A stretch of DNA of 64,000 bases, taken from contig CAYULA010000014.1 in the NCBI GenBank assembly GCA_964445525.1, positions 10,492 to 74,491 of the forward strand, in the 5' to 3' direction. The translations under genes were made by a program, and so were the position numbers. The notes beneath the pieces are model-generated. The model saw nothing but the letters and a program-made list of their open reading frames with translations. It searched no databases and was not told where the DNA came from. The stretch comes from an uncultured Thermoplasmatales archaeon (lineage in GTDB: Archaea > Thermoplasmatota > Penumbrarchaeia > Penumbrarchaeales > Penumbrarchaeaceae). Shown piece after piece: positions 24,139-53,254 of this stretch. Every line of letters starts with the position of its first letter. The first letter of the stretch is position 1.

Positions 24139-24151
24139 TTCGTCTCACCGA

Positions 24152-36022: not shown

Positions 36023-39000
36023 TTCACCAGCTCCCCCGTGTTCAAGTTGTTCTTGAGTTTCGATACCAGGTTGGAAGCTTTCCTCAAATTGTTTGTCATC
36101 CCCTCGATATCGAACCTTCTCACATTCTCATTAAGGTCCGATCCCAGTCGAGAAAGCTCCTGTATGTCGAGGTCCCTTCCGAGTGCCTGAAGCTTATTGG
36201 ATACCTCCTCCATTGAATCCATCGATGAGGTGTCTGTTGCCTTTTTCAAAGGCTCCTCCAATTCCCTGATGATTTTATCTGGTATCTCTGAAGAATCAGG
36301 TCTGTAGAAACAGGAAATATCGATCTCCCCGGATTCCGAGCAGGTTTTTGTTTCTTTCTCGATCGTGTCTTTCACCGCTTCATGTGGCAGGAAATTTGCC
36401 AGGTTTGATAACAGGTCCTCTTTCGAGAATGGTTTCAGCAATGCTCCGTTGAACCCTTTGAAGACCAGTTCCTCCTCCCCTTTTCTTATTATGGAAGCTG
36501 TAAGGGCTATAATCGGGATCTCCTCCATTTTCAGGTCTTTTCTTATGGCCTCCGCCGTTTCGAAACCGTCCATCACCGGCATTTTGATATCCAGAAGTAT
36601 CAGGTCTGCACCGTCCTTTGAAAGGACATCAAGGGCTTCTTTTCCGTTTTCGACCTCTGTTATCTGAAGGTCATGGGATTCAAGGAATCCTCTGACGATT
36701 CCCCTGTTGCTCTCAACATCATCGGCCACAAGGATTCTGGATCCCTTGAACATTATCTTGCCCTGGAAATCTTCTCTCTCTATCTTTTCCCTTGCATCCG
36801 GTGATCTCTTTACGTCTTCTATGATTATGTGGAATCGGGATCCCTTTCCCACCTCACTTTTCAGTTCGATACTTCCGTTCATCATACTTATCAGTCTTCT
36901 GCTAATGGCCAGACCCAGTCCAGTTCCTCCGTACTTTCCCGAATCCTGCCCCTTCATCTGATCGAACATTCCGAAAATCCTCTCCTTTTCCTCCTCTGGA
37001 ATGCCTATACCCGTATCCGAGACCATCAGATGAAGATCATAATTTCCATCTTCGTTGGGATTCACCCAGGATTTTATTGATATTCCTCCTTTTTCGGTGA
37101 ATTTTAGGGCATTCCCTACCAGGTTCATCATTACCTGCCTGATCCTGACCTCGTCCAGATGTAGATCTTCGGGGATCTCACCTAGTATCTCATTTTTGAG
37201 GAACAGACCCTTTGAATCGGCCTTGTTTTGAAAGATCTTTTTCATCTCTTCGGTTAGGCTTGAAATACTGATAGGCTGATAACAAAGTTCCAGTTTCCCG
37301 GATTCGATCTTTGAGAGGTCCAGTATGTCATTTATGAGCCTCAGAAGTGTCTTGCCGCCGGACCTGATTGCGTCCAGGTATTCTTTAAGGGAGGGATCCT
37401 CGATCTTTCCGGAAAGAATCTCGGAGAAACCGAGAATTGCATTCATCGGAGTTCGGATTTCATGGGACATGTTCGCCAAAAATTCCGATTTCATCCTTGT
37501 TGCTTCCTCGGCCTCTCTCCTGGCTTTGAGCATCTCCTTTTCCGCATTTTTCTGTTTTGATATGTCCCGATATATCCCGTATACCGCTTCGAGTCTCCCT
37601 TCTATCGATATCGGAGTTCCGAGAATGGATACATCTATGAGTTGGCCGTCTTTTGTCAATCTTTTAGTCTCATTGAACAATGTCTTTCCATTTGAGACCT
37701 GATTGGTAAGTGCCATGCCCTCTTCTTTCAGTTCCTCCGGAACTATCAGATCGTTTATCTTGCATCCCGATGCCTCTTCAGGTTTGAATCCGAAAAGCTC
37801 GGTAAAACCCCTGTTGATCCTCAATACACGGTCATCCCTGTCCAGTACGACTATGGCCTCAGGTGATCCCTCGAAAAGCTCCTCCATGTAGGCTTTCTGG
37901 ACAGCCGTTCCATATTCTGCAAGTTTTATCTTGGTGATATCTGAAATTATTATACCAATATCCTCACCCGATCTGAAAGCTTTCATGGAAAACTGGTTCA
38001 TTCCCGGATTCCAATTTGATACAAGCTCCTCGGTGAAATAGGGTTTGCCAGTTCTGAAAACTTCCATCAAAGCATCGTGTCTCTCGGATCTTTCCTCCAG
38101 AGGAACCAATTCCGTCAATTTCCTTCCGATTGCTTCCTCGAGAGGGACCTTGAATCTCTCGGATCCGGATTCATTTGCCATTATCAGCCTCATGTCTTTA
38201 TCCAAAAGCATGAATCCATCAGTGGCGGAGTCCATGAATGTGGACAATCTCTCCTCGCTCTTTCTGAGCTCTTCTTCGGAATTTTTACTTTCAGTTATAT
38301 CCTGCTGTGTTCCGGATAATCTTAATGCCCTGCCATTTTCATCCCTTTCGCTGATCCTTCCCTTTATGTGCAACCATCGCCAGGTTCCGTTTTTGGCCTT
38401 CACGCGGAACTCGTTTTCAATTTTTTCGGAAATAGTCTCCGGATTTAACCTCATATTAGAAAGTGCGGTACCTCTGTCTTGCGGATGAATCAGGTCCTTC
38501 CAGGAATCGAATCCCTTTCCAACCTCGTCTCGGTTGTATCCAAGAAAACTCAACCAACTGTCATCCATGTGGAGATTTTGTTTCTGAATATCAAGCTCCC
38601 AGAGACCGAGATTTCCGGCTTCAAGAGCCATATCAAGTCTTTCCCTTGATTTCCTTTCCATTTCTTCTATCTGCATTCTCTGTAGGAATTCTCCTATGAG
38701 CAAACCTGTTCTTTCTATCGTTTCCACCTGATCTTTCCTTAGGGAACGGGTATCATTCATGAAAATCAATATGAAACCCTTGTCTCCGCTTCCCAGTTTC
38801 ATGGGAATCGAAAAAAGATTTTTTTCTTTGATGGGCATTTTAGAGACAGTTCCATCTCCGAGTTCATAGGTCCCGCTGAATGTTTCACCGGCAGAGATGA
38901 ATTCTTTTATTGTTCGTTTCATCTCTTTTTTTATGACATTGGTCCATATGTTTTTCTCGGAATCGTTTCCAATAATACCTTGGGAGTTGTCATCCATGGT

Positions 39001-40404
39001 TTCGAACATCAAAATACCCTGTGACCGGGTGTAATCCTGTATAATGCCCAAAACTTCAGAGATTCCTTCCTTCTTGGATTCGGAAGACATTAACATACGT
39101 GCAATATCTTTCTGAAACAGGAGATTCTCCTCGTTCCATTTCCTTTTCCTAATATCCCTCATAACACACTGTATCGATTCGAATCTATCATCTTTGAAAG
39201 TCGGACGACCGAACACTTCCACCGGGAAGGAATTGCCTGACTTTGATTTATACATGAATTCGGCAGAATCCGAGGTCCGATTGTGTATCAGGTTCTCGAT
39301 CAATGGTATGATTTTCTCGTAATCATCCGGATTGTCAAGGTATTCCAGCACATTGCTGCCAACAACCTCGTTCTGTTCATACCCTCCGAATTCTTTTACG
39401 GTCGGAGAACAATATATTATATTACCTTGATAGTTGATGGAAAAAACGATATCTCCCTGGTTCTCTGTGAGCAGCCTGAACTGCATCTCTCTTTCTTCTA
39501 TCTCTCTTCTCAATTTCAATTTCTCCGTGATATCCTCACCGGAACTGACAGTGGAGGTTATGTTTCCCTGATCATCTTTCATATAGCTATTGTGCCAGGC
39601 AATTGTCTTGACTTCACCGGATCTGGATATGATCTCGCTTTCAACGTAATGCGAGCCGGATAATTCGCCTGAAATGATCCTGTTGAAATGTGTCATTACA
39701 TCATTCCGGTTCTCTTCGGGGATCACCATATCGAACCAATTCCTTCCGAGGAGCTCCTTTTCCCTGTAACCGAGTACCTCGCATCCCTTGGGATTTATCA
39801 ATTTCACCCTCTGATCGCTTCCGATTACAACGAAGATTACTGATGCAACATCCACATATGTTTTGAGTCTGGATCCCTCTTTTTTTACTATTGCCCTTGT
39901 TCTCTTAAGCTCTTCCCTTGACTCCTCGAGTTCGGCAAGTATCTCTGCCGCATGAGCATTGGCATTTGCCAGGGCCCCGTTGAGTTTTTCAATCTCCTCG
40001 TTCTTGATCTCGATCTCGGCCATGAGTTCGCAAGCATGAGCGTTGGCTTTGGCTAGTTCATTGTTCAGGCTTTCCAGGGCCTCCTTCTTCAATTCAAGTT
40101 CAGCAACGAGTTCTGCCGACCTTGCGGTGACCTCCGACAATCTTACATTCTTCTCATCCAGCTCGGCATACAGTTCGGCAGAGTCGGCACTAACATTTGC
40201 AAGCCTCTGGGACAGGTAACGGAATTTATCCCTCTGATCCTCGAGTTTTCTGATAATTCCCTGGATATCTTTTATCCTTGTCCGGTCAAGAACGGCCTTG
40301 TTCTCTTTCGAGATTTCCTTTAACATCATTTTTATTTCGGATATTTTATCCTCGGTTTCGGATTCGAGATAACTATCCCCGTTTTTACCTTCTTTCTCTA
40401 CCAT
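36019..40404 (-). CDS. large cytoplasmic hybrid sensor kinase (coiled coil, multiple PAS, GAF-like, HisKA, HATPase, REC, C-terminal helical domain)
   Basis: H-box FLANMSHEIRTPMNAILGF, HATPase VSDTGIGIPEE...GTGLGLAISRRL and REC ILVADDVESNRG...LILLDIKMPVMDG are present. No TM segment was seen. ATG at 40404 follows GGAGAA. The ORF extends to GTG at 40437. Confidence 0.9.
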   Translation of the reverse strand: MVEKEGKNGDSYLESETEDKISEIKMMLKEISKENKAVLDRTRIKDIQGIIRKLEDQRDKFRYLSQRLANVSADSAELYAELDEKNVRLSEVTARSAELVAELELKKEALESLNNELAKANAHACELMAEIEIKNEEIEKLNGALANANAHAAEILAELEESREELKRTRAIVKKEGSRLKTYVDVASVIFVVIGSDQRVKLINPKGCEVLGYREKELLGRNWFDMVIPEENRNDVMTHFNRIISGELSGSHYVESEIISRSGEVKTIAWHNSYMKDDQGNITSTVSSGEDITEKLKLRREIEEREMQFRLLTENQGDIVFSINYQGNIIYCSPTVKEFGGYEQNEVVGSNVLEYLDNPDDYEKIIPLIENLIHNRTSDSAEFMYKSKSGNSFPVEVFGRPTFKDDRFESIQCVMRDIRKRKWNEENLLFQKDIARMLMSSESKKEGISEVLGIIQDYTRSQGILMFETMDDNSQGIIGNDSEKNIWTNVIKKEMKRTIKEFISAGETFSGTYELGDGTVSKMPIKEKNLFSIPMKLGSGDKGFILIFMNDTRSLRKDQVETIERTGLLIGEFLQRMQIEEMERKSRERLDMALEAGNLGLWELDIQKQNLHMDDSWLSFLGYNRDEVGKGFDSWKDLIHPQDRGTALSNMRLNPETISEKIENEFRVKAKNGTWRWLHIKGRISERDENGRALRLSGTQQDITESKNSEEELRKSEERLSTFMDSATDGFMLLDKDMRLIMANESGSERFKVPLEEAIGRKLTELVPLEERSERHDALMEVFRTGKPYFTEELVSNWNPGMNQFSMKAFRSGEDIGIIISDITKIKLAEYGTAVQKAYMEELFEGSPEAIVVLDRDDRVLRINRGFTELFGFKPEEASGCKINDLIVPEELKEEGMALTNQVSNGKTLFNETKRLTKDGQLIDVSILGTPISIEGRLEAVYGIYRDISKQKNAEKEMLKARREAEEATRMKSEFLANMSHEIRTPMNAILGFSEILSGKIEDPSLKEYLDAIRSGGKTLLRLINDILDLSKIESGKLELCYQPISISSLTEEMKKIFQNKADSKGLFLKNEILGEIPEDLHLDEVRIRQVMMNLVGNALKFTEKGGISIKSWVNPNEDGNYDLHLMVSDTGIGIPEEEKERIFGMFDQMKGQDSGKYGGTGLGLAISRRLISMMNGSIELKSEVGKGSRFHIIIEDVKRSPDAREKIEREDFQGKIMFKGSRILVADDVESNRGIVRGFLESHDLQITEVENGKEALDVLSKDGADLILLDIKMPVMDGFETAEAIRKDLKMEEIPIIALTASIIRKGEEELVFKGFNGALLKPFSKEDLLSNLANFLPHEAVKDTIEKETKTCSESGEIDISCFYRPDSSEIPDKIIRELEEPLKKATDTSSMDSMEEVSNKLQALGRDLDIQELSRLGSDLNENVRRFDIEGMTNNLRKASNLVSKLKNNLNTGELVK

Positions 40405-40420
40405 TTGTATTCTCCATATT

Positions 40421-40807
40421 TCAGAAAGTGGCAACACTGGTTTCCTTTCCGACCATGCTTACAACAGTTGACAGTCCGGCAAGCTCGGCCTCCTCGTAGA
40501 ATTCCTTTGACTGCAGGTCCTTTGGAATGGAACAGTAATACTGGGTGCAGGGGGCGCATATGAGCATCTTCCCTCCAAGTGAGAAGAACTGTTCTATGTA
40601 TTCATCCAGAGGATCGAAACCTTCCACCTTGACTCCTTTGCTCGATTCCTTCAGGGACCATATTGTCCCGTCCATTGTCAGGAACATTGTAACATTCTTT
40701 CCCAGGGCCAGTGCCGTGCAAGCCCATCCATAGGCAAGAGTGGCCGCTGCTCCCCTGTCCTGTTTCCCGGTTCTGAGGACCACAAGCACCTCGGCGTCAT
40801 TATCCAT
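40421..40807 (-). CDS. DsrE/DsrF-family sulfur-relay-like protein
   Basis: 128 aa with a DsrE-like Rossmann pattern (VLVVLRTGK..., VTMFLTMDG, KMLICAPC). Confidence 0.7.
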   Translation of the reverse strand: MDNDAEVLVVLRTGKQDRGAAATLAYGWACTALALGKNVTMFLTMDGTIWSLKESSKGVKVEGFDPLDEYIEQFFSLGGKMLICAPCTQYYCSIPKDLQSKEFYEEAELAGLSTVVSMVGKETSVATF

Positions 40808-41654: not shown

Positions 41655-41917
41655 CTTCTTCACCTTGCAATTAACATGTTAAGTAAATAATCCAGCTTGA
41701 TATCGAATTTCAGTTCAAACATCCAGAAGGTGTTTATTTAATGGTTATTTCACAGGTTCGCATATTGATATCAATAATTTTCTTGGCCAAGTTCTTTGAA
41801 TCATTTAAATCAAGAAACCTGAAAGTTCTAAATATACATTAGAAAACAATATATCGGGAGAGATTGATACCCTTTCTGAAATTTATACCAATTTTTTACA
41901 TGAATGGGGGTCTTTCC

Positions 41918-44900
41918 ATGTTCGGATTGGAGAAGAGAACAGGCCGTATGCTCAAGATAAAATCCATAGTCATATCAGTTTTGATGGTCCTGACATCCAT
42001 CATTTTGGTTCAGGGATCCGAAAAAGCATATTCCGTATCCTCGGGCGATCTCGTTCTGCATTATAATTTTAATGAAGGTTCGGGTCAAAACGTTTCAGAT
42101 TCAAGCGGTAACGGATGGGATGCAACATTAGGCTTGGATTACGAAGAAGGAGAAAGGGATCCAGAATGGGTCTCCGGTGTAAACGGAACCTGTCTGGAAT
42201 TTGACGGTGTGGAAGACCTGGTCATGTGTAATCCGTTTGATATGCCAGAGGATGAATTTACCGTTGCATTCTGGCTTAAAACAGGTGAAAATGATAGGAG
42301 AATATATCCTTTCTCATATGCTGTTGAGGGGGAGGATAATGAGCTTTTGATCTACATGGATGATGACATCACGGTAGAGGTTGACTGGCCCAATGAGTTT
42401 CATGTAGATAGGGACCTGAGAGATAATGAATGGCACCATCTTGCGATCACTTGGAGAAGTGATAATGGTACCATAGATATGTACGTTGATGGCATATTGG
42501 AAAGGTCAGCCACAACGGCTGAGGGTGAGACCTTAGAACAGAACGGATCTCTTATGCTGGGTTATGAGCAGGATTCAGTTGGGGGTGGATTTGAAAATGA
42601 ACAGGGTTTCGCCGGGTCCATGGATGAACTTATCATCACAGGTTCTTACATGAACTCTACCGAAATCATGGATCTGTTCGGTGAATACAATCCCCCTCCC
42701 TCGGGTCTTGAAATTTTTCCTGGTAGCCAGTTCCTTGATCTTTCTTGGAATTCTGCAGAGGATCTCGGCCTTGACTTCTATAATATCTATCGTGTGGGCC
42801 CCGAAGATATCGGAAGCGGTTTGAGAGGATTCTATTATAACAACAGCAATCTGACCGATCTGCGGTTTTCAAGAATAGATGATCAGGTTAATTTCGACTG
42901 GGGATTCGATTCTCCGGGTGGTGATATTGATGATGAAACATTCTCGGTCTCATGGAGAGGATATCTGAAACTGGAAAATGATGGGCAATATGATTTCTAC
43001 ACTACCACCGATGATGGATTGAGGCTCTGGGTCGACGGGGATCTAATTATTGACGACTGGAATAATCATGCATCAACGGAAAGAACGGCATACAAATATC
43101 TGGAGAGGGGATTTCATTCCATAAGATTGGATTATTATGACAATTCACTTACAGCCACGGTAAAAATGGAGATGGATGGCCCTCGTTCTCCAAGGATGAT
43201 CATACCTTCGGATCTGCTGTTTTCCTTCAACCTGACGGAAATGGAATCGATCGGAACCTCCGCTTCCAACAATTTCAGGGATTCGGATCTGGAATCAGGG
43301 TCCCCGTATTTTTATCAGATCAGCTATATCGACGGGGACGGTATCGAGAGCGGTCGCTCCGGAATCGAGGGTGGAATACCCTCTGTGCCTTCAACGTTCA
43401 TTGTGAATCCTTATGAAGCTGACGGAACCGTCGGTCAGAAACTGAAATTCAGATTAACCATTGGCAATGATGCAAGATACAATGATTGGTTCGAATTGGA
43501 GGTTCTGGAACCATTCGCCGGATGGGTGACCCTTGAAGGAGATGAATATTTCATTGAATCAGGAAGGAGAGAGTATCTGGATATGTTTGTGGACATCCCC
43601 TTGAATGCAACAGATGGGACTGTTCAGATCCGGATGGAGATGAAATCTTCTCTAAACGATGTTGTTCAGGTTGCATCCGTGTGGATTGACATATCAACGG
43701 ATCCCGTTTTAATGAATCTCAGACCCTATGACGGTTTCCGATCTGGATCAACCGAAATCATGATATCATGGGATACGGCTATTTTATCTTCAACGAAAGC
43801 CTATCTCAAGAAAAAGGATGAGAGTACATATACGGAATACAACGGGACAAACGGCATTTATCATGTTGTGAATATTTCAGGTCTTTCCAGGGAAACCTAT
43901 TACGAATATTACGTAGTATCTGTCTCGGAATTCGGTTCTACTCAAAGTGATGTAAGGGATTTCTACGTGGACAAAGGAGTGCAGTTCAAGGTATCCTTAA
44001 TGGATGAATCAATAAAGAGAGATTACGGACAGATGGTCACTGTTCATGTGCAAAACACCGATGATAAACTGCATCATGTTATTGTTACGGTTGACAACCC
44101 GCATGATGATCTTGTTGCAGGTTTTGTTGGTTCGGGATCTACAGATCGCTCACTTCCCGTCATGCCAGGTACAACGTCAGTTGTAAAACTTGCCCTCCAT
44201 GCCCAGGATGCAAAGGATATCGAGCACAGATTATTCCTTAACCTTACAACAGTTTCGTCAGATGGAGATGAGCCTCTTAAATCCTATGCTGTTATGAAAG
44301 TCAGATTGGATCATGTTTTCGTTAACCTGACCCTGACTGAAGTATCGACCGATCCTTATACACTTACGAAGAAGATACGTATAGAAAATACAGATGACAC
44401 TGTAACGGATCTAAGGGTTTACTCACAGGACAGGTATTCTTCCTATCTGAATATGGAACCATCTATCCAGCATGGAAACCTCAGGTCGGGTCACTCCATT
44501 GAAATTGATATATCCCCCCAGCTGACGTTCAGTTTCATCCCCTTCACATCGACAATATTCGTATCGGCCTATGACAAGACCTATCATATCGATCTTGATT
44601 TTTCCCCTCCTTCTGGCTGGGATGTTTTCTGCGCATCGCTTTTCCCCAACTGGGGAGGTTTTCCTTTCGTGGAGATCCCTGAAAATGATATGGACATGGA
44701 TGGATTGCTCGATGGTGAGGATGACGATATAGACGGTGACGGCATTCCGAATTCAGAGGAACCTTCATTCACCATGGATACCGATAATGACGGATTTCCC
44801 AACATGATCGACCCGGATGATGACGGAGACGGAAATCCGGACATCAGTGATCCATGGAGAATTGATTTCGACAATGACTGGATCCCGAATTATATCGATC

Positions 44901-47900
44901 CAGACAGGGATGGAGATGGAATAGATAATATCAATGATACCTACCCGGACGATCTGGACAATGACGGGATCAACAACGGCAGGGACCTGGATGATGATAA
45001 TGACCGCATTAAAGACAGTGATGATTATCACCCCCAGGATCATGATAACGACGGTGAAAATGATGACAAGGATTCCGATGATGATAACGACCTCATCTCT
45101 GATGTTTCCGATACTTACCCTTACGATCAAGATAATGACGGGAATCCCGATGTTGATGACGGTGATTGGAAAGGGGGCGGAGAGGCAAGCCCGAAATCCA
45201 ATAAATGGAATCCGAATCCGGCTCCTGGGGGTTCTCCTGGGAATTTCGGAGGAGGAGGGGGTTCTGATTCATCCGGGGGAAGCGATTGGTACTGCACCAA
45301 CAAACCTGAACTAGACCTGGCCGAGCTATTACTATTCCTTTTTGATCTCGGTATGATTCTATTCGGATTGGTTACTGGAATACTGGCTGCCAGTGCAACC
45401 GCTGCTTGCATGTGGGGATTGATTGGGATTATCGGAGGATTCATCAAAGACCAGGCAATGGATGCTGCCTGGGGTTCCTTCGAAGATATGACGGGATTCA
45501 ACTGGGCTGCCACAAGAAAGAGTTTTGTTCAGAGCGGTCTTGATTTCTTCGGATTATCCAGAGGAACAAAGAATTCGGGACCGACAAGAGGGATCGATGA
45601 TGTGCTTAAATATTATAACCTGGCTGAAACGGATACATCGGATTATCCGGTTACTCTTGTTAATACTAATGGTATCCATTATTTCTGGCAGGAAGAGGTG
45701 GACTCCGTTGTGCAAATACATTATGCCACCAGTCAGGAGATAACCAGGCAACCCGTGGAGGAGATCTTGCTGACCAACACCTCTACCGACTCGGTTGATC
45801 CTTCCGTTATCTCCGACCCATACGGAAGGATCTATCTGGTTTATGCGGAAAACGGGCCATCTTCCAGCAGGCTCATGGTAAAATGGACGGATACCGATGG
45901 AAACTGGGATGAGAGTGTCGAGGTAGCCAGTTCCACGGGTAATATTCACCAACCCCAGATGATGAAGGACTCCAGGGGAAGATCCCACCTGGTTTGGATG
46001 GACAGCAGATATGGTAATTACGAGATAATGCATTCCTATTCCGATAGTCTCTATCATGACCACCCCCATATTGAAACACCAAAGAGATTGACCGATACCC
46101 TGTCGGTTTCTGCCCAGCCTGAGATTGGCATCGGAGGTAACAACGATGTTCACGTTGTATGGTCCGACGGATCGGGGGCATCCAGGGAGATCTATCATAT
46201 AATGAGCGATGACAGGGGAGAAAGCTGGGGTTCCAACTACCAGGTCTCCAATTCCGGAAATGGTACGGGAGAACCGGCACTGGCATTGACTGAACAGAAT
46301 GTCGTCCATGTTGTATGGAAGGATTCGAGACATGGAGAGAGCGAGCTTTATTACAGAAAGGGGCCTGATTCAGCATCAAGCTGGGGGGAAGAGGAAAGAT
46401 TGACGGATGACACCTCCTATTCCGAGTTTCCCGTTCTGAATATCTACAAGGAAAATCTGATCCTGACCTGGCACGATGACAGAACAAATATCGATCTTCT
46501 CTATTTCAAGACATATAATTCAACAGAAGGTGAGTGGTCGCTTACCAAGCGTGTGCCTGCTGGTATTCCAACTCTCGATTCCCTGTTTTTCGAGTTGGAA
46601 CTTACTCCGAAGGACTCATCAGGCGAGGTCAAACCCCATGACTTCTACCTCATGCTGGATGACATAGTAATCGGTTCCGTCATAAATCAGGTTCCCGACG
46701 GAAAGTATCTTTTCGAGATACCCATGGATGTCCTATCAGCAGCATCGGCTGCAAGGTCCACAGGCAAACTGAAGCTGGTGACCAAACACATGAATCCGGG
46801 TCATTACACGGTTGCTGCCAACTGGAAGCTGATGTGGCATTTCACATATGATAATACCTATGTCTGTGCTCCGGATCAGTACACTGCCGATATGTATTTG
46901 AGGGAAAATCTTTCCGATCGGTGGTTGACCGAGGATCCTGCCATTTACGCCAATGATATCAGTCTGTCCGATTCCATGCCGGATTTGAATGACACCATAC
47001 AGATCACCGCAACCGTGAGAAATCAGGGAGGTGATGCTGCACAAGATGTTGAAGTGAGATTCTACGAACAGGAACCGGGAAACTCTTCCAGACAGATCGG
47101 AGATACTTTGATAATTGAATCATTGGCACCTCATGGAAATGAGTCGGTAACCGTCCAATGGACCGCATCAAGCAACGCGTCCAGGATTTACGTCGTGGTT
47201 GATGAGGATGAAAAAATCAACGAACTTGTCGAGACAAATAACGTGGAGTATATCAGGGTAACGGTTTTGAGGGAAGAACCTCCAAAGTGTATGATAAGTA
47301 TAAACGGCGGGAACCTCTATACCCATCGTGATTATGTAATAATCTCAATAGAAACGGATTCTGCAAATGAAGTATCCCACTATTCTCTCTCAAATGATAA
47401 TATCACATGGTCCGATTGGATGTGGATAAACACACACGTTTCCTGGTATCTGGAAGAGGATACAAGGTCCGATACAATTGAAGAGGATCAGAGAACCATA
47501 TATTGCAAGGTTATGGATATGGCAGGTCTCCAGTCAGAGGTAATATCGGCAAAGATTGGATATTATCCTGACAATCCTGTAGTATTGAATTCTTCCCTTA
47601 ATGAGGGAATCGTCGATGTCAACGAATCGATTTCGATAGAGTTCAACAATCCCATGGACGATATCTCAACAAGAACCTCAGTTATCTTAGAACCATCCCT
47701 TGACGGATCCTTTTTCTGGGAGAATTATACTTTGTTCTTCAAACCTATGGATGGTTGGGAACCAGATCTGATCTACAACATCACAATACTCGACACAGCG
47801 ATGGATTTCGCTGGAAGAGAAATAGACCGGGAATACAACTGGTCCTTCATTGCCATTGAGGAGGGTCCCGGAGATGATGATGACGATGATTACACGGATA

Positions 47901-48217
47901 CCGATGGTGACGGCATGCCTGACTGGTGGGAGGACCTACACGGATTTAACAAGACAGATCCTTCCGATGCTTCAGGGGACCTCGACGGTGACGGGAGGAC
48001 AAATCTGGAGGAATTCAATAATGGGACCGATCCGGAGAATATTGATGAACCTGCAGATGACGACGACGATGACGACGATGAAGAGGAAGATGATGATGGT
48101 GGAATCGGTGGTCTGTTAATCTGTGCGATCCCCGTAATGATAGTTATAATCCTGATTGCGGTGATCGTTGTGGTTGTCTTTATAAAACGGGGAGGTAAAT
48201 CCGAAATAGAGGAATAG
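41918..48217 (+). CDS. giant (~2,100 aa) multidomain surface protein: LamG-like, FN3-like, PA14, CARDB-like, Asp-rich Ca-binding repeats, mid-chain TM hairpin, BNR-type propeller repeats, C-terminal TM anchor
   Basis: This is a single uninterrupted ORF that opens at 41864. ATG at 41918 follows GGGGGT and gives the signal/anchor KIKSIVISVLMVLTSIILVQG. The PA14 block is GLRGFYYNNSNL...FSVSWRGYL...TTTDDGLRLWVDGDLIIDDWNNH. BNR-like motifs are SDDRGESWG and TDTDGNWDE. The C-terminus is DDDDDDDEEEDDDG + TM + KRGGKSEIEE. Confidence 0.85.
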   Translation: MFGLEKRTGRMLKIKSIVISVLMVLTSIILVQGSEKAYSVSSGDLVLHYNFNEGSGQNVSDSSGNGWDATLGLDYEEGERDPEWVSGVNGTCLEFDGVEDLVMCNPFDMPEDEFTVAFWLKTGENDRRIYPFSYAVEGEDNELLIYMDDDITVEVDWPNEFHVDRDLRDNEWHHLAITWRSDNGTIDMYVDGILERSATTAEGETLEQNGSLMLGYEQDSVGGGFENEQGFAGSMDELIITGSYMNSTEIMDLFGEYNPPPSGLEIFPGSQFLDLSWNSAEDLGLDFYNIYRVGPEDIGSGLRGFYYNNSNLTDLRFSRIDDQVNFDWGFDSPGGDIDDETFSVSWRGYLKLENDGQYDFYTTTDDGLRLWVDGDLIIDDWNNHASTERTAYKYLERGFHSIRLDYYDNSLTATVKMEMDGPRSPRMIIPSDLLFSFNLTEMESIGTSASNNFRDSDLESGSPYFYQISYIDGDGIESGRSGIEGGIPSVPSTFIVNPYEADGTVGQKLKFRLTIGNDARYNDWFELEVLEPFAGWVTLEGDEYFIESGRREYLDMFVDIPLNATDGTVQIRMEMKSSLNDVVQVASVWIDISTDPVLMNLRPYDGFRSGSTEIMISWDTAILSSTKAYLKKKDESTYTEYNGTNGIYHVVNISGLSRETYYEYYVVSVSEFGSTQSDVRDFYVDKGVQFKVSLMDESIKRDYGQMVTVHVQNTDDKLHHVIVTVDNPHDDLVAGFVGSGSTDRSLPVMPGTTSVVKLALHAQDAKDIEHRLFLNLTTVSSDGDEPLKSYAVMKVRLDHVFVNLTLTEVSTDPYTLTKKIRIENTDDTVTDLRVYSQDRYSSYLNMEPSIQHGNLRSGHSIEIDISPQLTFSFIPFTSTIFVSAYDKTYHIDLDFSPPSGWDVFCASLFPNWGGFPFVEIPENDMDMDGLLDGEDDDIDGDGIPNSEEPSFTMDTDNDGFPNMIDPDDDGDGNPDISDPWRIDFDNDWIPNYIDPDRDGDGIDNINDTYPDDLDNDGINNGRDLDDDNDRIKDSDDYHPQDHDNDGENDDKDSDDDNDLISDVSDTYPYDQDNDGNPDVDDGDWKGGGEASPKSNKWNPNPAPGGSPGNFGGGGGSDSSGGSDWYCTNKPELDLAELLLFLFDLGMILFGLVTGILAASATAACMWGLIGIIGGFIKDQAMDAAWGSFEDMTGFNWAATRKSFVQSGLDFFGLSRGTKNSGPTRGIDDVLKYYNLAETDTSDYPVTLVNTNGIHYFWQEEVDSVVQIHYATSQEITRQPVEEILLTNTSTDSVDPSVISDPYGRIYLVYAENGPSSSRLMVKWTDTDGNWDESVEVASSTGNIHQPQMMKDSRGRSHLVWMDSRYGNYEIMHSYSDSLYHDHPHIETPKRLTDTLSVSAQPEIGIGGNNDVHVVWSDGSGASREIYHIMSDDRGESWGSNYQVSNSGNGTGEPALALTEQNVVHVVWKDSRHGESELYYRKGPDSASSWGEEERLTDDTSYSEFPVLNIYKENLILTWHDDRTNIDLLYFKTYNSTEGEWSLTKRVPAGIPTLDSLFFELELTPKDSSGEVKPHDFYLMLDDIVIGSVINQVPDGKYLFEIPMDVLSAASAARSTGKLKLVTKHMNPGHYTVAANWKLMWHFTYDNTYVCAPDQYTADMYLRENLSDRWLTEDPAIYANDISLSDSMPDLNDTIQITATVRNQGGDAAQDVEVRFYEQEPGNSSRQIGDTLIIESLAPHGNESVTVQWTASSNASRIYVVVDEDEKINELVETNNVEYIRVTVLREEPPKCMISINGGNLYTHRDYVIISIETDSANEVSHYSLSNDNITWSDWMWINTHVSWYLEEDTRSDTIEEDQRTIYCKVMDMAGLQSEVISAKIGYYPDNPVVLNSSLNEGIVDVNESISIEFNNPMDDISTRTSVILEPSLDGSFFWENYTLFFKPMDGWEPDLIYNITILDTAMDFAGREIDREYNWSFIAIEEGPGDDDDDDYTDTDGDGMPDWWEDLHGFNKTDPSDASGDLDGDGRTNLEEFNNGTDPENIDEPADDDDDDDDEEEDDDGGIGGLLICAIPVMIVIILIAVIVVVVFIKRGGKSEIEE
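44678..45170 (+). repeat. Asp-rich thrombospondin-type-3-like calcium-binding repeat region (coding)
   Basis: About 165 aa of reiterated DxDxDGxxDxxD-type units (DIDGDGIPN, DTDNDGFPN, DDDGDGNPD, DRDGDGIDN, DLDNDGINN, DHDNDGEND, DQDNDGNPD). Confidence 0.6.
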
Positions 48218-49890: not shown

Positions 49891-50099
49891 AGGTTGAAGC
49901 TAATAAAGCTAACTTTATAGATATCAGGTGTCCCTACCATATGATGGATCGTTTGCAGATATGAATGTCCAGCATGAGATTATCCCTCAATAGAAAGTTA
50001 GATAAAGGTATCCGACCAATTTATTCATATCCAAGATAACCATAATTGAAATAAAATAGGGTTTTATTTGGATTATAGTTAAATAAGGGGGCATAAACG

Positions 50100-50855
50100 G
50101 TGAAGTTAGATAAACTGCTTTGGGCCGGTGTCGGATTCGGTATTGCCGTATCATCCGTGACCGCTATAATCCTCTTTCTGCCCATTGATGGTCAGGACGA
50201 GGAGGAAAATGAGGAAACCACCGGAAATACCGGTGGGGTTTACTTTCTGAAAATAGAAGGGATAGAGGGAGAATGTTCGGATCCCGGGCATGACAGCTGG
50301 AGTGAGATATCCTCATTCAGCCAGAGTATAATAATGAGATCCGGCGGAGGATCCTCTTCCGGGAGGACAAGATCCGAAGGTTCCTCCTCAATTCAGACAT
50401 TCACCATATCAAAGAGAGTTGACAAGGCAACACCGAGGATCCTCGAGGCCTGTGTGAATGGAGAACTCCTTTCGGAGGTGGAGATCGATTTCTGTTCGAT
50501 CGGAGTATCCGGATATCTGAAAAGTTACATGACCTATACATTGAAAGATGTTTTAGTCGAAGGTTATTCCACACAGGGTCAATCCGAGGATGTGGTTATC
50601 CCGACCGAGGAGACCAACATAAATTCATCCGAACCGCAGTTGAACAACGATTTCATTGTCATAAATCAGCACAGCGAAATGGTAAAATATCAGCCGTCAC
50701 AGATAACCGGTATCAGAAAGATGGAAACCAGGCCTCTGGAGATAGTCACCATCAGCTATGAAGAGATCGAGGTATCCTATACCGAATCCGATGATGAGGG
50801 GGAAAGCAAGGGAAAAGTGCAATACACCTGGAAGATTGAAGGAGCGGAATCTTAG
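50100..50855 (+). CDS. membrane-anchored Hcp-family (T6SS tube protein fold, PF05638-like) protein
   Basis: The GTG start lies 8 nt after AAGGGGG. It has the TM helix LLWAGVGFGIAVSSVTAIILFLPI and an acidic linker, followed by Hcp-like blocks VYFLKIEGIEGECSDPGHDSWSEISSFSQ, FTISKRVDKATPRILEACVNGELL, YTLKDVLVEGYS and VTISYEEIEVSYTE...GKVQYTWKI. Confidence 0.75.
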   Translation: MKLDKLLWAGVGFGIAVSSVTAIILFLPIDGQDEEENEETTGNTGGVYFLKIEGIEGECSDPGHDSWSEISSFSQSIIMRSGGGSSSGRTRSEGSSSIQTFTISKRVDKATPRILEACVNGELLSEVEIDFCSIGVSGYLKSYMTYTLKDVLVEGYSTQGQSEDVVIPTEETNINSSEPQLNNDFIVINQHSEMVKYQPSQITGIRKMETRPLEIVTISYEEIEVSYTESDDEGESKGKVQYTWKIEGAES

Positions 50856-50915: not shown

Positions 50916-51875
50916 ATGAACAAATTCGATGAAAAAATTCAGGAAAGTGTCGGCGGAAAGCTGATGACAAAAACCATCCACACCATCCAGGTCAATATCA
51001 CCTTGAAATGCAACCAGGAGTGCACTCACTGCCATCACAAGGCTGGTCCGGATAGGGAGGAGATGATGAATTGGGAGACAATGGAAAGGATAGTGGAGAT
51101 CTCAAAGGATCCTTCAATTGAAATAATCGATATTACCGGGGGAGCACCTGAGGAACATCCAGATTTAAAGAGATTCGTGAAAGCCCTCAAGGATATCGGA
51201 AAGCACGTCATGGTCAGAACAAATCTGACTGCTCTTATGAAGGAGGAAAACAGGCATCTTGCGGAGTTCTTTTGTGACAATTCCATCGAGCTGATAGCCT
51301 CACTTCCCTGCTATGAGGTTGCGGAGGTGGATTGTGTCAGGGGCGATGGAGTTTTTGACACCTCCATTGAAGGATTGAAACTGTTGAATTCATTGGGATA
51401 CGGGAGGGATGATGATCTTAAACTGAATCTTGTGTTCAATCCAATGGCTGATTTTCTTCCTCCGCCCCAGGGAGCTCTGCTTGCAGAATACAAGGAAATA
51501 CTGAAAAAGGAACACGATATCGATTTCACCTCTCTTTTCACCATCACCAATATGCCCATCGGAAGATTCTGGGAGGACCTCAAGAAGAAGGGGAAGGATG
51601 ACCAATACATGAAACTGCTCATGGACAATTTCAATCCCACCACCGTAGACGCGCTGATGTGCAGATTTCAGATAAGTATCGGATGGGACGGAACCATCTA
51701 TGACTGCGATTTCAATCAGGCACTGGGACTGGGTGTTGTTGAGGGCATTCCCAAAAATATCTCTGAAATAGAAAAGTCGGGGCCGGAAACCAGACAGATA
51801 AACACCGGCAACCACTGTTTCGGATGCACGGCCGGGGCAGGATCCTCCTGTGGCGGAGCTCTGCTGGAGGATTGA
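50916..51875 (+). CDS. arsS: radical SAM/Cys-rich-domain protein (TIGR04167, ArsS-type)
   Basis: CNQECTHC is a CX3CX2C radical SAM cluster motif. The C-terminal signature HCFGCTAGAGSSCGGAL is characteristic of the rSAM/selenodomain (DUF3641) family. Confidence 0.8.
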   Translation: MNKFDEKIQESVGGKLMTKTIHTIQVNITLKCNQECTHCHHKAGPDREEMMNWETMERIVEISKDPSIEIIDITGGAPEEHPDLKRFVKALKDIGKHVMVRTNLTALMKEENRHLAEFFCDNSIELIASLPCYEVAEVDCVRGDGVFDTSIEGLKLLNSLGYGRDDDLKLNLVFNPMADFLPPPQGALLAEYKEILKKEHDIDFTSLFTITNMPIGRFWEDLKKKGKDDQYMKLLMDNFNPTTVDALMCRFQISIGWDGTIYDCDFNQALGLGVVEGIPKNISEIEKSGPETRQINTGNHCFGCTAGAGSSCGGALLED

Positions 51876-51876
51876 T

Positions 51877-52569
51877 ATGGTCGAGGACCGACCTTCATGC
51901 ATAGTCCTGATGATAAGATCTCCCGAACCTGGAAAGGTTAAGACCAGACTTGCTGCGGATGTGGGAGATGAAATTGCACTCAAACTCTACCTGGCATTCA
52001 TCGAAGACAGCCTTGAAATGCTTGAAAGATTAAACATTGATGTCATACTCTCAGTGTATTCCAATGACAATAATAGGCAAATCATGGATCATATCCATAA
52101 AGACCATAAAATAATCGATCAGAAAGGAAAGAACCTGGGCGAAAGACAGTGTAATAGCCTGAATGTTGCTTTCAGGCTTGGGTATGGAAAGGCAGTTGTG
52201 ATGGCTGCGGACTGCCCGGACCTGGAACCGGATTTCATCGAGGGGGCATTCGCATCTCTTAACCATTGCGATGCTGTCATCGGTCCCTGTGAAGATGGGG
52301 GTTACTATCTTCTGGGAATAAACAGGGAAAAACTGGATCAAGGTATATTTTCGGATGTTGAATGGGGTAGTGACCAGGTGATGGAAAAAATCAGGTCCAA
52401 TGCTAACCACCTGGGTCTGATCATGTTCGAACTTCCCCTGTGGTATGATGTTGATACATATGATGATCTGGTGGTCATGGGCAATCGAATAAGAGGATCC
52501 GAGAGGGCTCGAAATACCATGGAGATCTTTCCGCAGGCAAGGAAATCGGAGGATCTTCCCCTTGAATGA
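51877..52569 (+). CDS. DUF2064 / TIGR04282-type (CofC-like) transferase associated with ArsS-type rSAM
   Basis: CIVLMIRSPEPGKVKTRLAADVGDEIALKLYLAFIEDSL is the typical DUF2064 N-terminus. The ATG lies 1 nt after the arsS-like stop. Confidence 0.75.
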   Translation: MVEDRPSCIVLMIRSPEPGKVKTRLAADVGDEIALKLYLAFIEDSLEMLERLNIDVILSVYSNDNNRQIMDHIHKDHKIIDQKGKNLGERQCNSLNVAFRLGYGKAVVMAADCPDLEPDFIEGAFASLNHCDAVIGPCEDGGYYLLGINREKLDQGIFSDVEWGSDQVMEKIRSNANHLGLIMFELPLWYDVDTYDDLVVMGNRIRGSERARNTMEIFPQARKSEDLPLE

Positions 52570-52570
52570 G

Positions 52571-53254
52571 ATGAAGATATCCGTTATTGTCCCTGTACTC
52601 AATGAGAAGGACATCATAAACGACCTGATCAGCCACTTACGCTCCCTTCCGGGAGGCAAGGAAGTTGAGATCATAGTGGTGGAAGGATCGAAGGAAAGGG
52701 ATACGATTGAGGCTATAGAGGATGCAACAGTTCTGAAATTGACCTCTCCCCGAGGAAGAGGAATTCAGATGAACACGGGAGCTGATTCTGCTTCAGGTGA
52801 TATTTTTCTATTCCACCATTCGGACAGCAGGCTTCCGGAGGAAGCATTCCGATTGGTCAAGGATTCGTTGAAGGATGAGAGGATCATGGGGGGAGCATTC
52901 ACTCTAAGATTTGACAAGGCGCCCATTCACATGAGAATGGCGTATCCGATTCATGACCTGAGGGGAAGGATAACAAGAATCCCTTTCGGGGATCAGTCAA
53001 TATTTCTCAGAAGGGAAGCCTTCGAGAGACTGGGGGGTTATAAAAATTACAGGATTTTGGAAGATATTGATCTTATGCAAAGGATGAGGAGAAAAGGAAT
53101 CAAGATCAGGATTCTGAAAGAAAAGGTTGTATCCTCCAGCAGAAGATACCTGGAAAGAGGACCGATCAGGAATCTTATCAACAATCTATTCATAATCACC
53201 CTCTTCAAATTGGGAGTGGATCCCAACCGTCTGGAGAAATTATATCCCAAATAG
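52571..53254 (+). CDS. GT2-family glycosyltransferase (TIGR04283-type, rSAM-associated transferase 2)
   Basis: ISVIVPVLNEKDII is a GT2 N-terminal motif. The length and the C-terminal block (FGDQSIFLRREAFERLGGY) fit the family. The start is ATG 52571 or TTG 52562. Confidence 0.75.
   Translation: MKISVIVPVLNEKDIINDLISHLRSLPGGKEVEIIVVEGSKERDTIEAIEDATVLKLTSPRGRGIQMNTGADSASGDIFLFHHSDSRLPEEAFRLVKDSLKDERIMGGAFTLRFDKAPIHMRMAYPIHDLRGRITRIPFGDQSIFLRREAFERLGGYKNYRILEDIDLMQRMRRKGIKIRILKEKVVSSSRRYLERGPIRNLINNLFIITLFKLGVDPNRLEKLYPK

What the first reader, a model, noticed from the sequence alone, without database searches (positions are those of the whole stretch)
50100..50855. Membrane-tethered Hcp (T6SS tube-family) homolog in an archaeal context with no other secretion-system genes
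The ORF has a GTG start 8 nt after AAGGGGG. It encodes a short basic N-terminus, one TM helix (LLWAGVGFGIAVSSVTAIILFLPI) and an acidic linker (DGQDEEENEETTG). About 190 aa then reproduce, block for block, the conserved strands I associate with Hcp/PF05638. These blocks are VYFLKIEGIEGECSDPGHDSWSEISSFSQ, a Gly/Ser-rich loop, FTISKRVDKATPRILEACVNGELLSEVEI, YTLKDVLVEGYS and VTISYEEIEVSYTE..GKVQYTWKI. A ~45-aa insertion (VIPTEETNINS...IRKMETRP) precedes the last strands. Nothing in the 64 kb resembles TssB/C, VgrG, a baseplate or a sheath; the ClpB at 32 kb is an ordinary disaggregase. The backbone genes (PAN, Cbf5, MfnA) are archaeal. An Hcp ring covalently tethered to the outer face of the membrane cannot act as an ejected tube. 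That suggests a different, undescribed role, such as a surface receptor or chaperone ring, a pore accessory, or an exapted phage-tail-tube relative.
Basis: partly seen in the sequence, partly recalled or inferred. Interest (0 to 1): 0.75.

Follow-up and report, generated by a model that had tools for sequence, protein, structure and literature searches.

The report
Membrane-anchored orphan Hcp in an archaeon
An archaeon of the Thermoplasmatota carries a gene for the tube protein of the bacterial type VI secretion "speargun", but it has a membrane anchor and no speargun genes nearby, and it proves to be one of many exported, stand-alone copies of this protein whose job is unknown.

Summary
ORF 50100-50855 (+) encodes 251 aa: a 5-residue tail, a 24-residue uncharged helix, a 19-residue linker (net charge -7), and a full Hcp domain with a ~44-aa loop insertion. 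Pfam PF05638 scores 110 bits (E 1.3e-31). The AlphaFold core has pLDDT >90. Foldseek top hits are Hcp crystal structures (E 1e-14, TM 0.86-0.92).

The contig is archaeal (PAN, Cbf5, MfnA; nearest named Cbf5 are Thermoplasmatota) and uniform in composition. No T6SS or contractile-injection gene lies in the 64 kb.

The gene is under purifying selection (dN/dS ~0.13). The start codon and Shine-Dalgarno-like run are conserved in four loci, so the anchor is not an annotation artefact.

The architecture is not unique. An exhaustive search found dozens of Hcp cluster representatives with signal peptides, lipoboxes or anchors, some named as archaeal MAG proteins. It also found secreted chains with six tandem Hcp domains. 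Six distinct exported loci lack T6SS genes. Leaderless relatives (41-44% identical) sit inside real T6SS clusters.

Best reading: an exapted T6SS Hcp displayed as a tethered ring outside the membrane. Ring formation, topology and function are inferred, not shown. It is a new variant of a known kind.

The parts
50085..50091 (+). Shine-Dalgarno-like AAGGGGG, 8 nt upstream of the start codon
   Evidence: Read directly. A GGGG(G) run at the same distance is conserved in the four homologous loci.
50100..50855 (+). Complete CDS (251 aa plus stop) of the membrane-anchored Hcp-domain protein
   Evidence: ORF list. PF05638 E 1.3e-31. dN/dS 0.12-0.15 against 96% and 87% identical orthologues. The start column is GTG/GTG/TTG/ATG in four loci.
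50100..50114 (+). Short N-terminal tail MKLDK (two Lys, one Asp), predicted cytoplasmic
   Evidence: Sequence. The orientation is inferred from the charge distribution under the positive-inside rule.
50115..50186 (+). Hydrophobic segment L6-I29, a 24-residue uncharged run containing G10xxxG14. Predicted to be an uncleaved signal anchor (TM helix).
   Evidence: Kyte-Doolittle 19-residue mean is 2.1-2.2 in the orthologues. The uncharged run is 24 residues. L7, W8, G12, F13, G14, A16, V20, T21, L25, L27 and P28 are invariant in four sequences down to 49% identity. There are no small residues at -1/-3 for signal peptidase I and no lipobox (sequence).
50187..50243 (+). Acidic linker DGQDEEENEETTGNTGGVY (net charge -7). 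It begins with the invariant motif DGQDEE; with the two preceding residues the motif reads P-(I/T)-DGQDEE.
   Evidence: The model has pLDDT below 50 here. A similar motif follows the helix in P0024 (TDGQPDDEEEE) and P0059 (TDGMD).
50235..50600 (+). Hcp domain, N-terminal part: strands b1-b5, the Gly/Ser-rich extended loop and the conserved helix DKATPRILEACVNG
   Evidence: AF2 strands E46-52, E68-79, E96-106, H111-120, E123-134 and E140-159, with pLDDT mostly above 90. Foldseek matches Hcp crystal structures.
50601..50732 (+). Clade-specific insertion of about 44 aa (P168-R211) in the loop between strand b5 and the last three strands
   Evidence: There is no counterpart in 10 other Hcp sequences. 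pLDDT is 46-66. dN/dS is 0.18 against the 87% orthologue, so the insertion is under constraint.
50733..50852 (+). Hcp domain, C-terminal part: three strands and an acidic tail
   Evidence: AF2 strands E213-219, E222-230 and E236-245, with pLDDT about 95. P212, E214, I223, Y227 and T228 are nearly invariant across 64 Hcp sequences.

Best explanation
The gene encodes a T6SS-independent, exapted Hcp. It descends from a bacterial type VI secretion tube gene that gained an N-terminal Sec-type signal anchor.

The protein is inserted N-in/C-out as a type II single-pass membrane protein. Its Hcp beta-barrel domain therefore sits on the outer face of the archaeal cytoplasmic membrane, at the end of a ~19-residue acidic, flexible linker.

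Like all solved Hcp proteins, it most likely forms a hexameric ring. The six N-termini leave one face of the ring, so the ring would lie roughly parallel to the membrane on six tethers.

The protein is tethered, exported through Sec, unaccompanied by sheath, spike or baseplate genes, and carries a 44-residue loop insertion per subunit. For these reasons it is not polymerised into an ejected tube. It most likely acts as a static ring-shaped binding or holding platform, a surface chaperone or receptor for a secreted partner.

Shown: Hcp sequence and fold, the conserved and selected hydrophobic N-terminus, the archaeal contig, the orphan context, and the existence of a wide exported Hcp class.

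Inferred: no cleavage of the anchor, outside orientation, hexamer formation, absence of tube formation, and the binding role.
For: Identity. PF05638 gives 110 bits over the full profile and TIGR03344 is above its cut-off. The AF2 core has pLDDT above 90. Foldseek places Hcp crystal structures first: 7fcf E 1.3e-14 TM 0.86, 8yun TM 0.92, 1y12 TM 0.86.

The gene and its anchor are real.
- The start column and the GGGG(G) run are conserved in four loci, and one locus has an ATG at that position.
- The only in-frame start codon between codon 2 and the first Hcp strand (codon 48) is GTG at codon 20, inside the helix. A leaderless Hcp therefore cannot be made.
- dN/dS is 0.12-0.15 for the whole gene and 0.18-0.34 for the helix.

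Anchor rather than cleaved leader. The uncharged run is 24 residues, there is no AXA-type site or lipobox, and the helix is as conserved (46%) as the whole protein (50%) against P0003.

Outside orientation. The N-flank is net positive and the C-flank has a charge of -7. Relatives carry unmistakable cleavable signal peptides ending directly at the Hcp N-terminus, or lipoboxes with Pro/Thr/Glu linkers.

Ring compatibility.
- The hexamer-interface elements named in PMC3925092 (the helix and the C-terminal strands) are the most conserved columns.
- Engineered proteins fused to the N-terminus of Hcp1 crystallise as hexamers: 4kss, 6ap1 and 7o42, each with 6 chains and the Hcp part at the C-terminal end of the chain.
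- Natural secreted chains with exactly six Hcp domains exist. One of them gives a model with pTM 0.78.

T6SS independence. No T6SS or CIS family was found in the 64 kb. None was found in five other exported-Hcp loci. By contrast, 79 ORFs from 8 leaderless-Hcp loci include 7 TssF, 6 VipB and 4 TssG.

Origin. With the insertion excised, the domain is 41-44% identical to leaderless 160-aa Hcp. Members of that group, P0173 and P0218, lie in full T6SS clusters.
Against: Nothing about quaternary structure, topology or cleavage was measured. No dedicated predictor (SignalP, DeepTMHMM) and no multimer prediction were available. The invariant motif at the helix exit (P-I/T-D-G-Q-D-E-E) could be a processing site.

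The insertion is modelled with low confidence, so its position relative to the stacking faces is unknown.

No conserved neighbour or partner was found, so the 'binding platform' role has no direct support.

Only 64 kb of the genome was seen. The close clade has only four sequences plus one distant relative (P0024).

The count of exported forms among top hits is somewhat biased, because the search profile included the hydrophobic N-terminus.
Confidence: 0.6

Rival explanations
1. The hydrophobic N-terminus is a cleaved secretion signal, or the conserved P-I/T-D-G-Q-D-E-E motif is a processing site. The mature protein would then be a soluble Hcp ring released into the pseudo-periplasm or the medium rather than tethered.
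For: Forty-one of 124 exported Hcp representatives have the Hcp domain starting directly after a short leader, with AXA-like ends such as ...TWA|AAYIKFDG. Soluble exported Hcp therefore clearly exists. The motif at the helix exit is invariant in the clade.
Against: The uncharged run is 24 residues and there are no small residues at -1/-3. Helix residues including G12-F13-G14 are invariant at 49% overall identity, and dN/dS is 0.18-0.34. That pattern is unusual for a discarded leader.
Confidence: 0.15
2. The six helices with their GxxxG motif bundle into a membrane pore that continues into the ~4 nm Hcp lumen. The protein would be a channel or a conduit accessory rather than a passive platform.
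For: The G10xxxG14 (small-xxx-small) motif is conserved in the helix. Hcp rings have a 40 A channel (PMC3925092).
Against: The helix has no polar or charged lining residues. The linker is predicted to be disordered. No transporter partner is conserved.
Confidence: 0.07
3. The protein no longer forms rings. The Hcp barrel would be reused as a monomeric surface or adhesin-like module, or would be a decaying horizontally transferred remnant.
For: The large loop insertion and low pLDDT over 160-212. The gene lies near very large surface proteins.
Against: Purifying selection acts on every segment. The hexamer-interface helix and C-terminal strands are the best conserved parts. Six-domain single chains in the same sequence neighbourhood argue that the ring is the functional unit.
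Confidence: 0.08
4. Reverse topology: N-terminus out and Hcp domain in the cytoplasm, tethered to the inner face of the membrane.
For: None specific. Topology was not measured.
Against: The C-terminal flank has seven acidic and no basic residues, while the N-flank is net positive. Relatives carry cleavable signal peptides or lipoboxes that place the domain outside.
Confidence: 0.05
5. It is a conventional tube subunit of a T6SS or contractile injection system encoded elsewhere. The N-terminal helix would be a gene-calling artefact, or the contig would be bacterial or chimeric.
For: Only 64 kb of the genome was seen. Orphan hcp genes are common in bacteria that have a T6SS (my own knowledge).
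Against: - The start codon, the SD-like run and helix residues are conserved in four loci from independent assemblies.
- No usable start lies near the Hcp N-terminus.
- PAN, Cbf5 and MfnA are on the same contig.
- GC is uniform.
- Tetranucleotide correlation is r=0.94 between the Hcp segment and the PAN/Cbf5 segment, against 0.04-0.58 for unrelated loci.
- No archaeal T6SS is known to me.
Confidence: 0.03

Closest known systems
T6SS tube protein Hcp/TssD. Examples are P. aeruginosa Hcp1 (PDB 1Y12), the Hcp of PDB 7FCF, and the leaderless 160-aa Hcp of planctomycete T6SS clusters such as P0173 (Pirellulaceae MAG).
   Same: The same Pfam family across the full profile. The same fold, with TM 0.86-0.92. 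41-44% identity once the insertion is removed. The helix and C-terminal strands that build the hexamer are conserved.
   Different: - It has an N-terminal membrane anchor plus an acidic linker instead of a leaderless cytoplasmic start.
- It has a 44-aa insertion between b5 and b6.
- It sits in an archaeal genome.
- No sheath, spike, baseplate or ClpV gene lies within 64 kb, whereas P0173 and P0218 are embedded in T6SS clusters.
Other Sec-exported orphan Hcp-domain proteins seen only as database entries. Examples are P0059 'Hcp family T6SS effector [Thermoplasmatota archaeon]', P0203 '[Nitrosopumilus sp.]', and the lipobox forms P0215, P0216 and P0225-P0233.
   Same: An N-terminal leader, anchor or lipid anchor, often a flexible acidic or Pro/Thr-rich linker, then one Hcp domain, all in orphan genomic contexts. 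The lipobox group also has a ~30-aa insertion in the same loop.
   Different: The window clade has its own anchor sequence, the DGQDEE motif and its own insertion. It is monophyletic in 59 of 60 bootstraps, but its link to the other groups is unresolved. None of these proteins is characterised in the papers searched.
Engineered N-terminal fusions to Hcp1 used as hexamerisation scaffolds: GspE-Hcp1 (4KSR/4KSS), Vps4-Hcp1 (6AP1) and TrwK-Hcp1 (7O42).
   Same: A partner is attached through a linker to the N-terminus of Hcp, and the ring still forms as six chains. The geometry is the same as six anchors hanging from one face of the ring.
   Different: These are artificial and cytoplasmic. The partner is a hexameric ATPase, not a transmembrane helix.
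Phage and contractile-injection tail tube proteins (T4 gp19, Afp1/Pvc1-type).
   Same: A distantly related tube fold.
   Different: The match is much weaker: best viral model E 2.6e-6, TM 0.71 or less, about 10% identity. There is no PF06841 hit. No phage genes lie nearby and no relatives were found in viral contigs.
Hcp with C-terminal extension toxins ('evolved Hcp', Hcp-ET). This comparison rests on my own knowledge.
   Same: An Hcp domain fused to an extra module.
   Different: In those proteins the extension is a C-terminal toxin, and they are still fired by a T6SS. Here the extra module is an N-terminal export and anchor signal, and no T6SS is present.

Membership tests
Hcp domain family (Pfam PF05638 / Hcp1-like fold) | Sequence match above the curated threshold over the whole domain | tested here: met
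   PF05638 110 bits against a 23.5 cut-off, profile positions 1-129 of 129. TIGR03344 70 bits against 58.9.
Hcp domain family (Pfam PF05638 / Hcp1-like fold) | Two-sheet beta-barrel with one helix, superposable on solved Hcp | tested here: met
   AF2 core pLDDT above 90. Foldseek against PDB puts Hcp structures at E 1e-14 with TM (target-normalised) 0.86-0.92.
Hcp domain family (Pfam PF05638 / Hcp1-like fold) | Hexameric ring | not testable with these tools
   No multimer prediction was available. Indirect support only: conserved interface elements, N-terminal fusions that keep the hexamer, and six-domain natural chains.
Functional T6SS tube subunit (TssD) | Encoded with, or in a genome that has, T6SS core genes (TssB/C sheath, VgrG, TssE/F/G/K baseplate, TssJ/L/M, ClpV) | tested here: not met
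   None was found in the 64 kb. The AAA+ protein is ClpB, not ClpV. The rest of the genome was not seen. In the control, leaderless Hcp loci do show these genes.
Functional T6SS tube subunit (TssD) | Leaderless cytoplasmic protein that is exported only by sheath contraction | tested here: not met
   A conserved 24-residue hydrophobic N-terminal segment is part of the selected ORF.
Functional T6SS tube subunit (TssD) | Head-to-tail stacking of rings into a tube (loop L4,5 against the C-terminus; PMC3925092) | not testable with these tools
The tether and the 44-aa insertion make stacking unlikely, but this is inference.
Phage / eCIS tail tube proteins | Closest sequence or fold relatives are viral tube proteins, in a phage or CIS gene context | tested here: not met
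   Viral Foldseek hits are weak. There is no relative in viral contigs and there are no phage genes in the window.
Archaeal type IV pilin-like proteins (class III signal peptide) | A prepilin peptidase site, (K/R)-(G/A) immediately before the hydrophobic helix | tested here: not met
   The N-terminus is MKLDK|LLWAG, with no G/A at -1. The motif definition comes from my own knowledge.
Sec signal-anchor (type II) membrane proteins | A single N-terminal hydrophobic span of at least ~20 residues, no signal peptidase I or II site, and a more positive N-flank | tested here: met
   Kyte-Doolittle mean 2.1-2.2 over at least 19 residues. A 24-residue uncharged run with a C-flank net charge of -7. No lipobox or AXA site (sequence). 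These are heuristic tests only, with no dedicated predictor.

The most novel reading that the evidence does not exclude
Sec-exported Hcp rings are a widespread, unrecognised extracytoplasmic module of bacteria and archaea that works without any T6SS. They come in soluble, lipid-anchored, helix-anchored and single-chain six-domain forms.

One concrete possibility is a defensive decoy or sponge. The ring would be acquired from T6SS-armed neighbours and displayed on the cell surface. There it would capture Hcp-dependent effectors, or cap incoming Hcp tubes. That would be the first anti-T6SS device described in an archaeon.

Alternatively, these rings form a new class of ring-shaped envelope chaperone.
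Probability: 0.12. Interest if true: 0.85.

Novelty: new variant of a known kind. Interest (0 to 1): 0.6.

Why it matters
Hcp is regarded as a dedicated part of the contractile type VI machine. It is made in the cytoplasm, stacked into a tube and fired.

A conserved, selected Hcp that is instead sent through Sec and tied to the outside of an archaeal membrane shows that the ring has been reused for something else. The survey made here suggests this reuse is common:
- dozens of diverged exported clusters;
- forms found in Thermoplasmatota and Nitrosopumilus MAGs;
- natural six-domain single chains.

This has three consequences.
- Automatic annotation of such genes as 'T6SS effector Hcp' is misleading. 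They should not be taken as evidence of a T6SS in archaea or other lineages.
- It defines a simple, testable family for asking what an isolated Hcp ring does on a cell surface.
- Natural tethered or single-chain Hcp rings may be useful as scaffolds, as Hcp1 already is in structural biology.

Tried and rejected
- Two scans of GTDB species genomes found no relative. One used the clade alignment and one used the adjacent radical SAM protein. I therefore could not name the species or look at synteny in relatives. The phylum was inferred from Cbf5 hit names.
- A viral-contig scan found nothing.
- The metagenome scan returned only generic leaderless Hcp at 40% identity or less. I used these as a T6SS-linkage control.
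- tRNA and Rfam scans of the window were empty.
- No flanking repeats or mobile-element ends surround the gene.
- I looked for a conserved neighbour among the exported-Hcp loci. None exists. The only similarity is between the 2117-aa window protein and a 955-aa neighbour of P0003. It is a generic DxDxDG-repeat plus C-terminal anchor module.
- A first tree script timed out. The faster NJ tree resolves only the four-member clade (59/60) and not its origin or its link to P0024 or P0059.
- Six literature searches found no paper on exported, anchored, archaeal or tandem Hcp. That is absence in the held library, not proof of absence.
- I considered and rejected a type IV pilin-like signal, a Tat signal (no RR) and a lipobox for the window protein.
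- A hexamer test by concatenation was not possible: six copies exceed the 1200-residue limit and would not count as window sequence.
Full report
**1. What is in the sequence**

The ORF 50100-50855 on the + strand is real. It starts with GTG and encodes 251 aa. AAGGGGG lies at 50085-50091, 8 nt upstream of the start.

Pfam PF05638 (T6SS_HCP) matches residues 49-227 over the complete profile (1-129 of 129). The match has E 1.3e-31 and 110 bits against a cut-off of 23.5. NCBIfam TIGR03344 (TssD) scores 70 bits against 58.9. A sequence search of the PDB returns only Hcp proteins and engineered Hcp1 fusions, the best being 7fcf at E 4.7e-16.

**2. Structure**

An AlphaFold2 model was built on a 64-sequence alignment.
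- The strands and the single helix of the Hcp barrel have pLDDT mostly above 90.
- Residues 1-45 are below 50.
- The 160-212 loop is at 46-66.

Foldseek against the PDB ranks Hcp crystal structures first. 7fcf gives E 1.3e-14 and TM 0.86, 8yun gives TM 0.92, and 1y12 gives TM 0.86.

Against predicted viral structures the best hits are tail-tube and tail-completion proteins. They reach only E 2.6e-6, TM 0.71 or less and about 10% identity. The protein therefore belongs to the T6SS Hcp lineage rather than being a phage tube derivative.

**3. The N-terminus is part of the protein**

Four loci from independent assemblies were aligned. They carry a start codon in the same column (GTG, GTG, TTG, ATG), preceded at the same distance by a GGGG(G) run.

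Reading the codons, the only in-frame start codon between codon 2 and the first Hcp strand (codon 48) is GTG at codon 20, inside the helix. A canonical leaderless Hcp therefore cannot be produced.

The four proteins are 96%, 87% and 49% identical to the window protein. They keep L7, W8, G12, F13, G14, A16, V20, T21, L25, L27 and P28, and the motif D30-G-Q-D-E-E35.

Nei-Gojobori estimates:

| Segment | dN/dS |
|---|---|
| Whole gene | 0.12-0.15 |
| Helix segment | 0.18-0.34 |
| Insertion | 0.18 |

The helix is about as conserved against P0003 (46%) as the whole protein (50%).

The hydrophobic segment is a 24-residue uncharged run. Its Kyte-Doolittle 19-residue mean is 2.1-2.2. It has no small residues at -1/-3, no lipobox, no twin arginine and no prepilin-peptidase site. 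The N-flank is MKLDK. The following 19 residues have a net charge of -7 and no basic residue.

By the positive-inside rule this is an N-in/C-out signal anchor. This is a heuristic inference, because no dedicated predictor was available.

**4. The insertion**

Compared with ten other Hcp sequences, residues ~168-211 have no counterpart. They lie between the long strand b5 (140-159) and the last three strands (213-245).

According to PMC3925092, ring-on-ring stacking in E. coli Hcp1 uses loop L4,5 and the C-terminus. Single tryptophan substitutions at those positions abolish tube formation.

I could not inspect model coordinates. Whether the insertion covers a stacking face is therefore undetermined.

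**5. Genomic setting**

The contig is archaeal.
- PAN: 516 bits.
- Cbf5: 394 bits.
- MfnA: 433 bits.
- The best named relatives of the Cbf5 (58-62% identity) are Thermoplasmatota MAGs.

GC content is even, at 0.43-0.53. The tetranucleotide profile of the 8-kb segment carrying the gene correlates at r=0.94 with the segment carrying PAN and Cbf5. Unrelated loci give 0.04-0.58. The local gene order is reproduced in Logan, ENA and JGI assemblies of other samples.

Every other ORF of 150 aa or more was scanned. None belongs to a T6SS, phage-tail or CIS family. The AAA+ protein at 32 kb passes the ClpB equivalog (1313 bits, cut-off 1232) and fails ClpV1 (813 bits, cut-off 885).

Immediate neighbours of the gene:
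- upstream, a divergently transcribed DUF4397 protein;
- further upstream, a fatty-acid desaturase and a 2117-aa surface protein;
- downstream, an arsenosugar-type cassette of ArsS plus two glycosyltransferases.

This synteny holds only among the close orthologues. The 49%-identical P0003 has different neighbours. No functional linkage can therefore be read from the neighbourhood.

**6. Relatives**

The word-indexed search of 5.8 billion proteins found only three close relatives. All three have the same architecture.

The exhaustive HMMER search of 1.84 billion cluster representatives found 6,234 Hcp-like proteins. Among its best 150:
- P0024 (228 aa) shares the helix pattern, a TDGQPDDEEEE linker and a shorter insertion. 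It lies on a 1.7-kb contig.
- Of 109 single-domain representatives, 74 have a hydrophobic leader or anchor, 5 have a lipobox and 20 are leaderless. The search profile included the helix, so this count is somewhat biased.

- In 41 the Hcp domain follows the leader directly, as in a cleavable signal peptide.
- In 37 there is a short linker.
- In 46 there is a long linker, often acidic or Pro/Thr-rich.
- 15 carry a lipobox.

A lipobox group (P0215, P0216, P0225-P0233) carries a ~30-aa insertion in the same loop as the window protein. NCBI already labels two such proteins as Hcp in archaeal MAGs, one in Thermoplasmatota (P0059) and one in Nitrosopumilus (P0203).

Five further exported-Hcp loci, each with up to 10 kb of flank on either side, have no T6SS gene and no shared neighbour. 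As a control, 79 ORFs from eight leaderless-Hcp loci of the same metagenome scan include 7 TssF, 7 ImpE, 7 ImpA_N, 6 VipB and 4 TssG.

With its insertion removed, the window domain is 41-44% identical to leaderless 160-aa Hcp proteins. Two members of that group sit in full T6SS clusters: P0173 (Pirellulaceae) and P0218. The exported forms therefore derive from genuine T6SS tube proteins.

A neighbour-joining tree supports the four-member window clade (59/60) but resolves nothing deeper.

**7. How it most likely works**

Shown:
- an Hcp barrel;
- a conserved N-terminal hydrophobic span and acidic linker;
- purifying selection;
- an orphan, archaeal context.

Inferred: the protein is inserted by Sec as a type II membrane protein and forms the usual hexamer. 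The six linkers leave one face of the ring, so the ring floats a few nanometres above the membrane.

Three observations make the ring plausible.
- The helix DKATPRILEACVNG and the C-terminal strands build the subunit interface in Hcp1 (PMC3925092). They are the most conserved columns.
- Engineered proteins fused to the N-terminus of Hcp1 crystallise as six-chain rings: 4kss, 6ap1 and 7o42.
- Secreted proteins with exactly six Hcp domains in one chain exist (P0005). One of them, in an orphan context, gives a model with pTM 0.78 over 1068 residues. That fits a fixed ring-like arrangement, though I could not view the geometry.

A tethered, Sec-exported ring without sheath or spike cannot be loaded and fired. 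The most economical role is a static binding platform that reuses the effector-holding lumen of Hcp. This functional step has no direct evidence.

**8. Rivals**

The rivals considered are a cleaved, soluble form, a pore, a non-ring module, reverse topology, and a conventional tube subunit of a machine encoded elsewhere. They are weighed in the structured sections of this report.

**9. Membership and novelty**

The protein is a member of the Hcp domain family: the sequence and fold tests are met. It fails two defining features of a functional T6SS tube subunit, namely a leaderless cytoplasmic protein and linkage to T6SS core genes.

I found no paper on exported, membrane-anchored, archaeal or tandem Hcp in the held library.

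I rate it a new variant of a known kind. It is interesting mainly because it points to a large overlooked class. It also shows that 'Hcp' annotations in archaeal MAGs are not evidence of a T6SS.

**10. Limits**

- No multimer or topology predictor was available.
- No model coordinates could be inspected.
- Only 64 kb of the genome was seen.
- The species was not identified.
- The function is unknown.

Noticed in passing
P0005 (locus L099:10001-13207), P0004 and P0006-P0023; not in the window: These are giant secreted proteins (1000-2164 aa) with exactly six full-length Hcp domains in one chain. P0005 scores 649 bits on PF05638 in 6 stretches. Many have N-termini like RRRLxxExLExRxLLA. P0005 lies in an orphan context with no T6SS genes. 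Its AF2 model has pTM 0.78 and pLDDT 79. They are possibly single-chain pseudo-hexameric rings. No paper was found.
   Followed up: partly
P0215, P0216, P0225-P0233 (for example L010:10001-10750): These are lipobox-type Hcp proteins with a long Pro/Thr/Glu-rich linker. They carry a ~30-aa insertion (GSNPLAYALVAPAPD...GPFIVQAVDAP) in the same loop as the window's insertion. The context is orphan (caspase-like peptidase, response regulator, NUDIX).
   Followed up: partly
P0203, P0052, P0063, P0040, P0065, P0100, P0140; also P0234, P0250, P0260: These are Nitrosopumilus-type exported Hcp proteins. One set has repeated DSFFDVF motifs between the leader and the Hcp domain. Another set has C-terminal repeats of the form PxW..A.WW..G.I.D..F..GI.YLI. 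Some are among the nearest neighbours of the window domain by distance.
   Followed up: no
window 50181-50204 (residues P28-E35): The motif P-(I/T)-D-G-Q-D-E-E at the exit of the helix is invariant in the clade. It is echoed in P0024 (TDGQPDDEEEE) and P0059 (TDGMD). It could be a processing or recognition site. It remains unexplained.
   Followed up: partly
window 50916-53254 (+): A three-gene cassette lies directly downstream. It comprises the ArsS-type radical SAM protein (TIGR04167, 414 bits) and the TIGR04282 and TIGR04283 glycosyltransferases. This is an arsenosugar-type pathway in a Thermoplasmatota contig.
   Followed up: partly
window 41864-48217 (+) and L001:10778-13645 (-): A 2117-aa surface protein has Pentaxin/LamG, PA14, CARDB and Big_5 domains. 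It ends in thrombospondin-type-3-like DxDxDG repeats, a poly-Asp/Glu run and a C-terminal TM helix. The same C-terminal module (41% identity over 108 aa) ends the 955-aa protein next to the P0003 Hcp gene. It is probably a generic lineage-specific surface anchor.
   Followed up: partly
window 58012-60042 (-), 55346-56353 (-), 32119-34749 (-): Bacterial-type genes lie on the archaeal contig: an NAD-dependent DNA ligase LigA, a D-Ala-D-Ala ligase-family protein and ClpB. This suggests substantial gene flow from bacteria into this lineage, consistent with acquisition of the Hcp gene.
   Followed up: no
window 22201-24904 (-): A tandem pair of KaiC-family ATPase genes (644 aa and 249 aa) lies next to Cbf5.
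   Followed up: no
window 36019-40437 (-) and 6755-9340 (+): Very large PAS-rich hybrid histidine kinases are present. One is 1471 aa with multiple PAS domains plus HisKA, HATPase and a receiver domain. This is an unusually rich sensory repertoire for a Thermoplasmatota contig.
   Followed up: no
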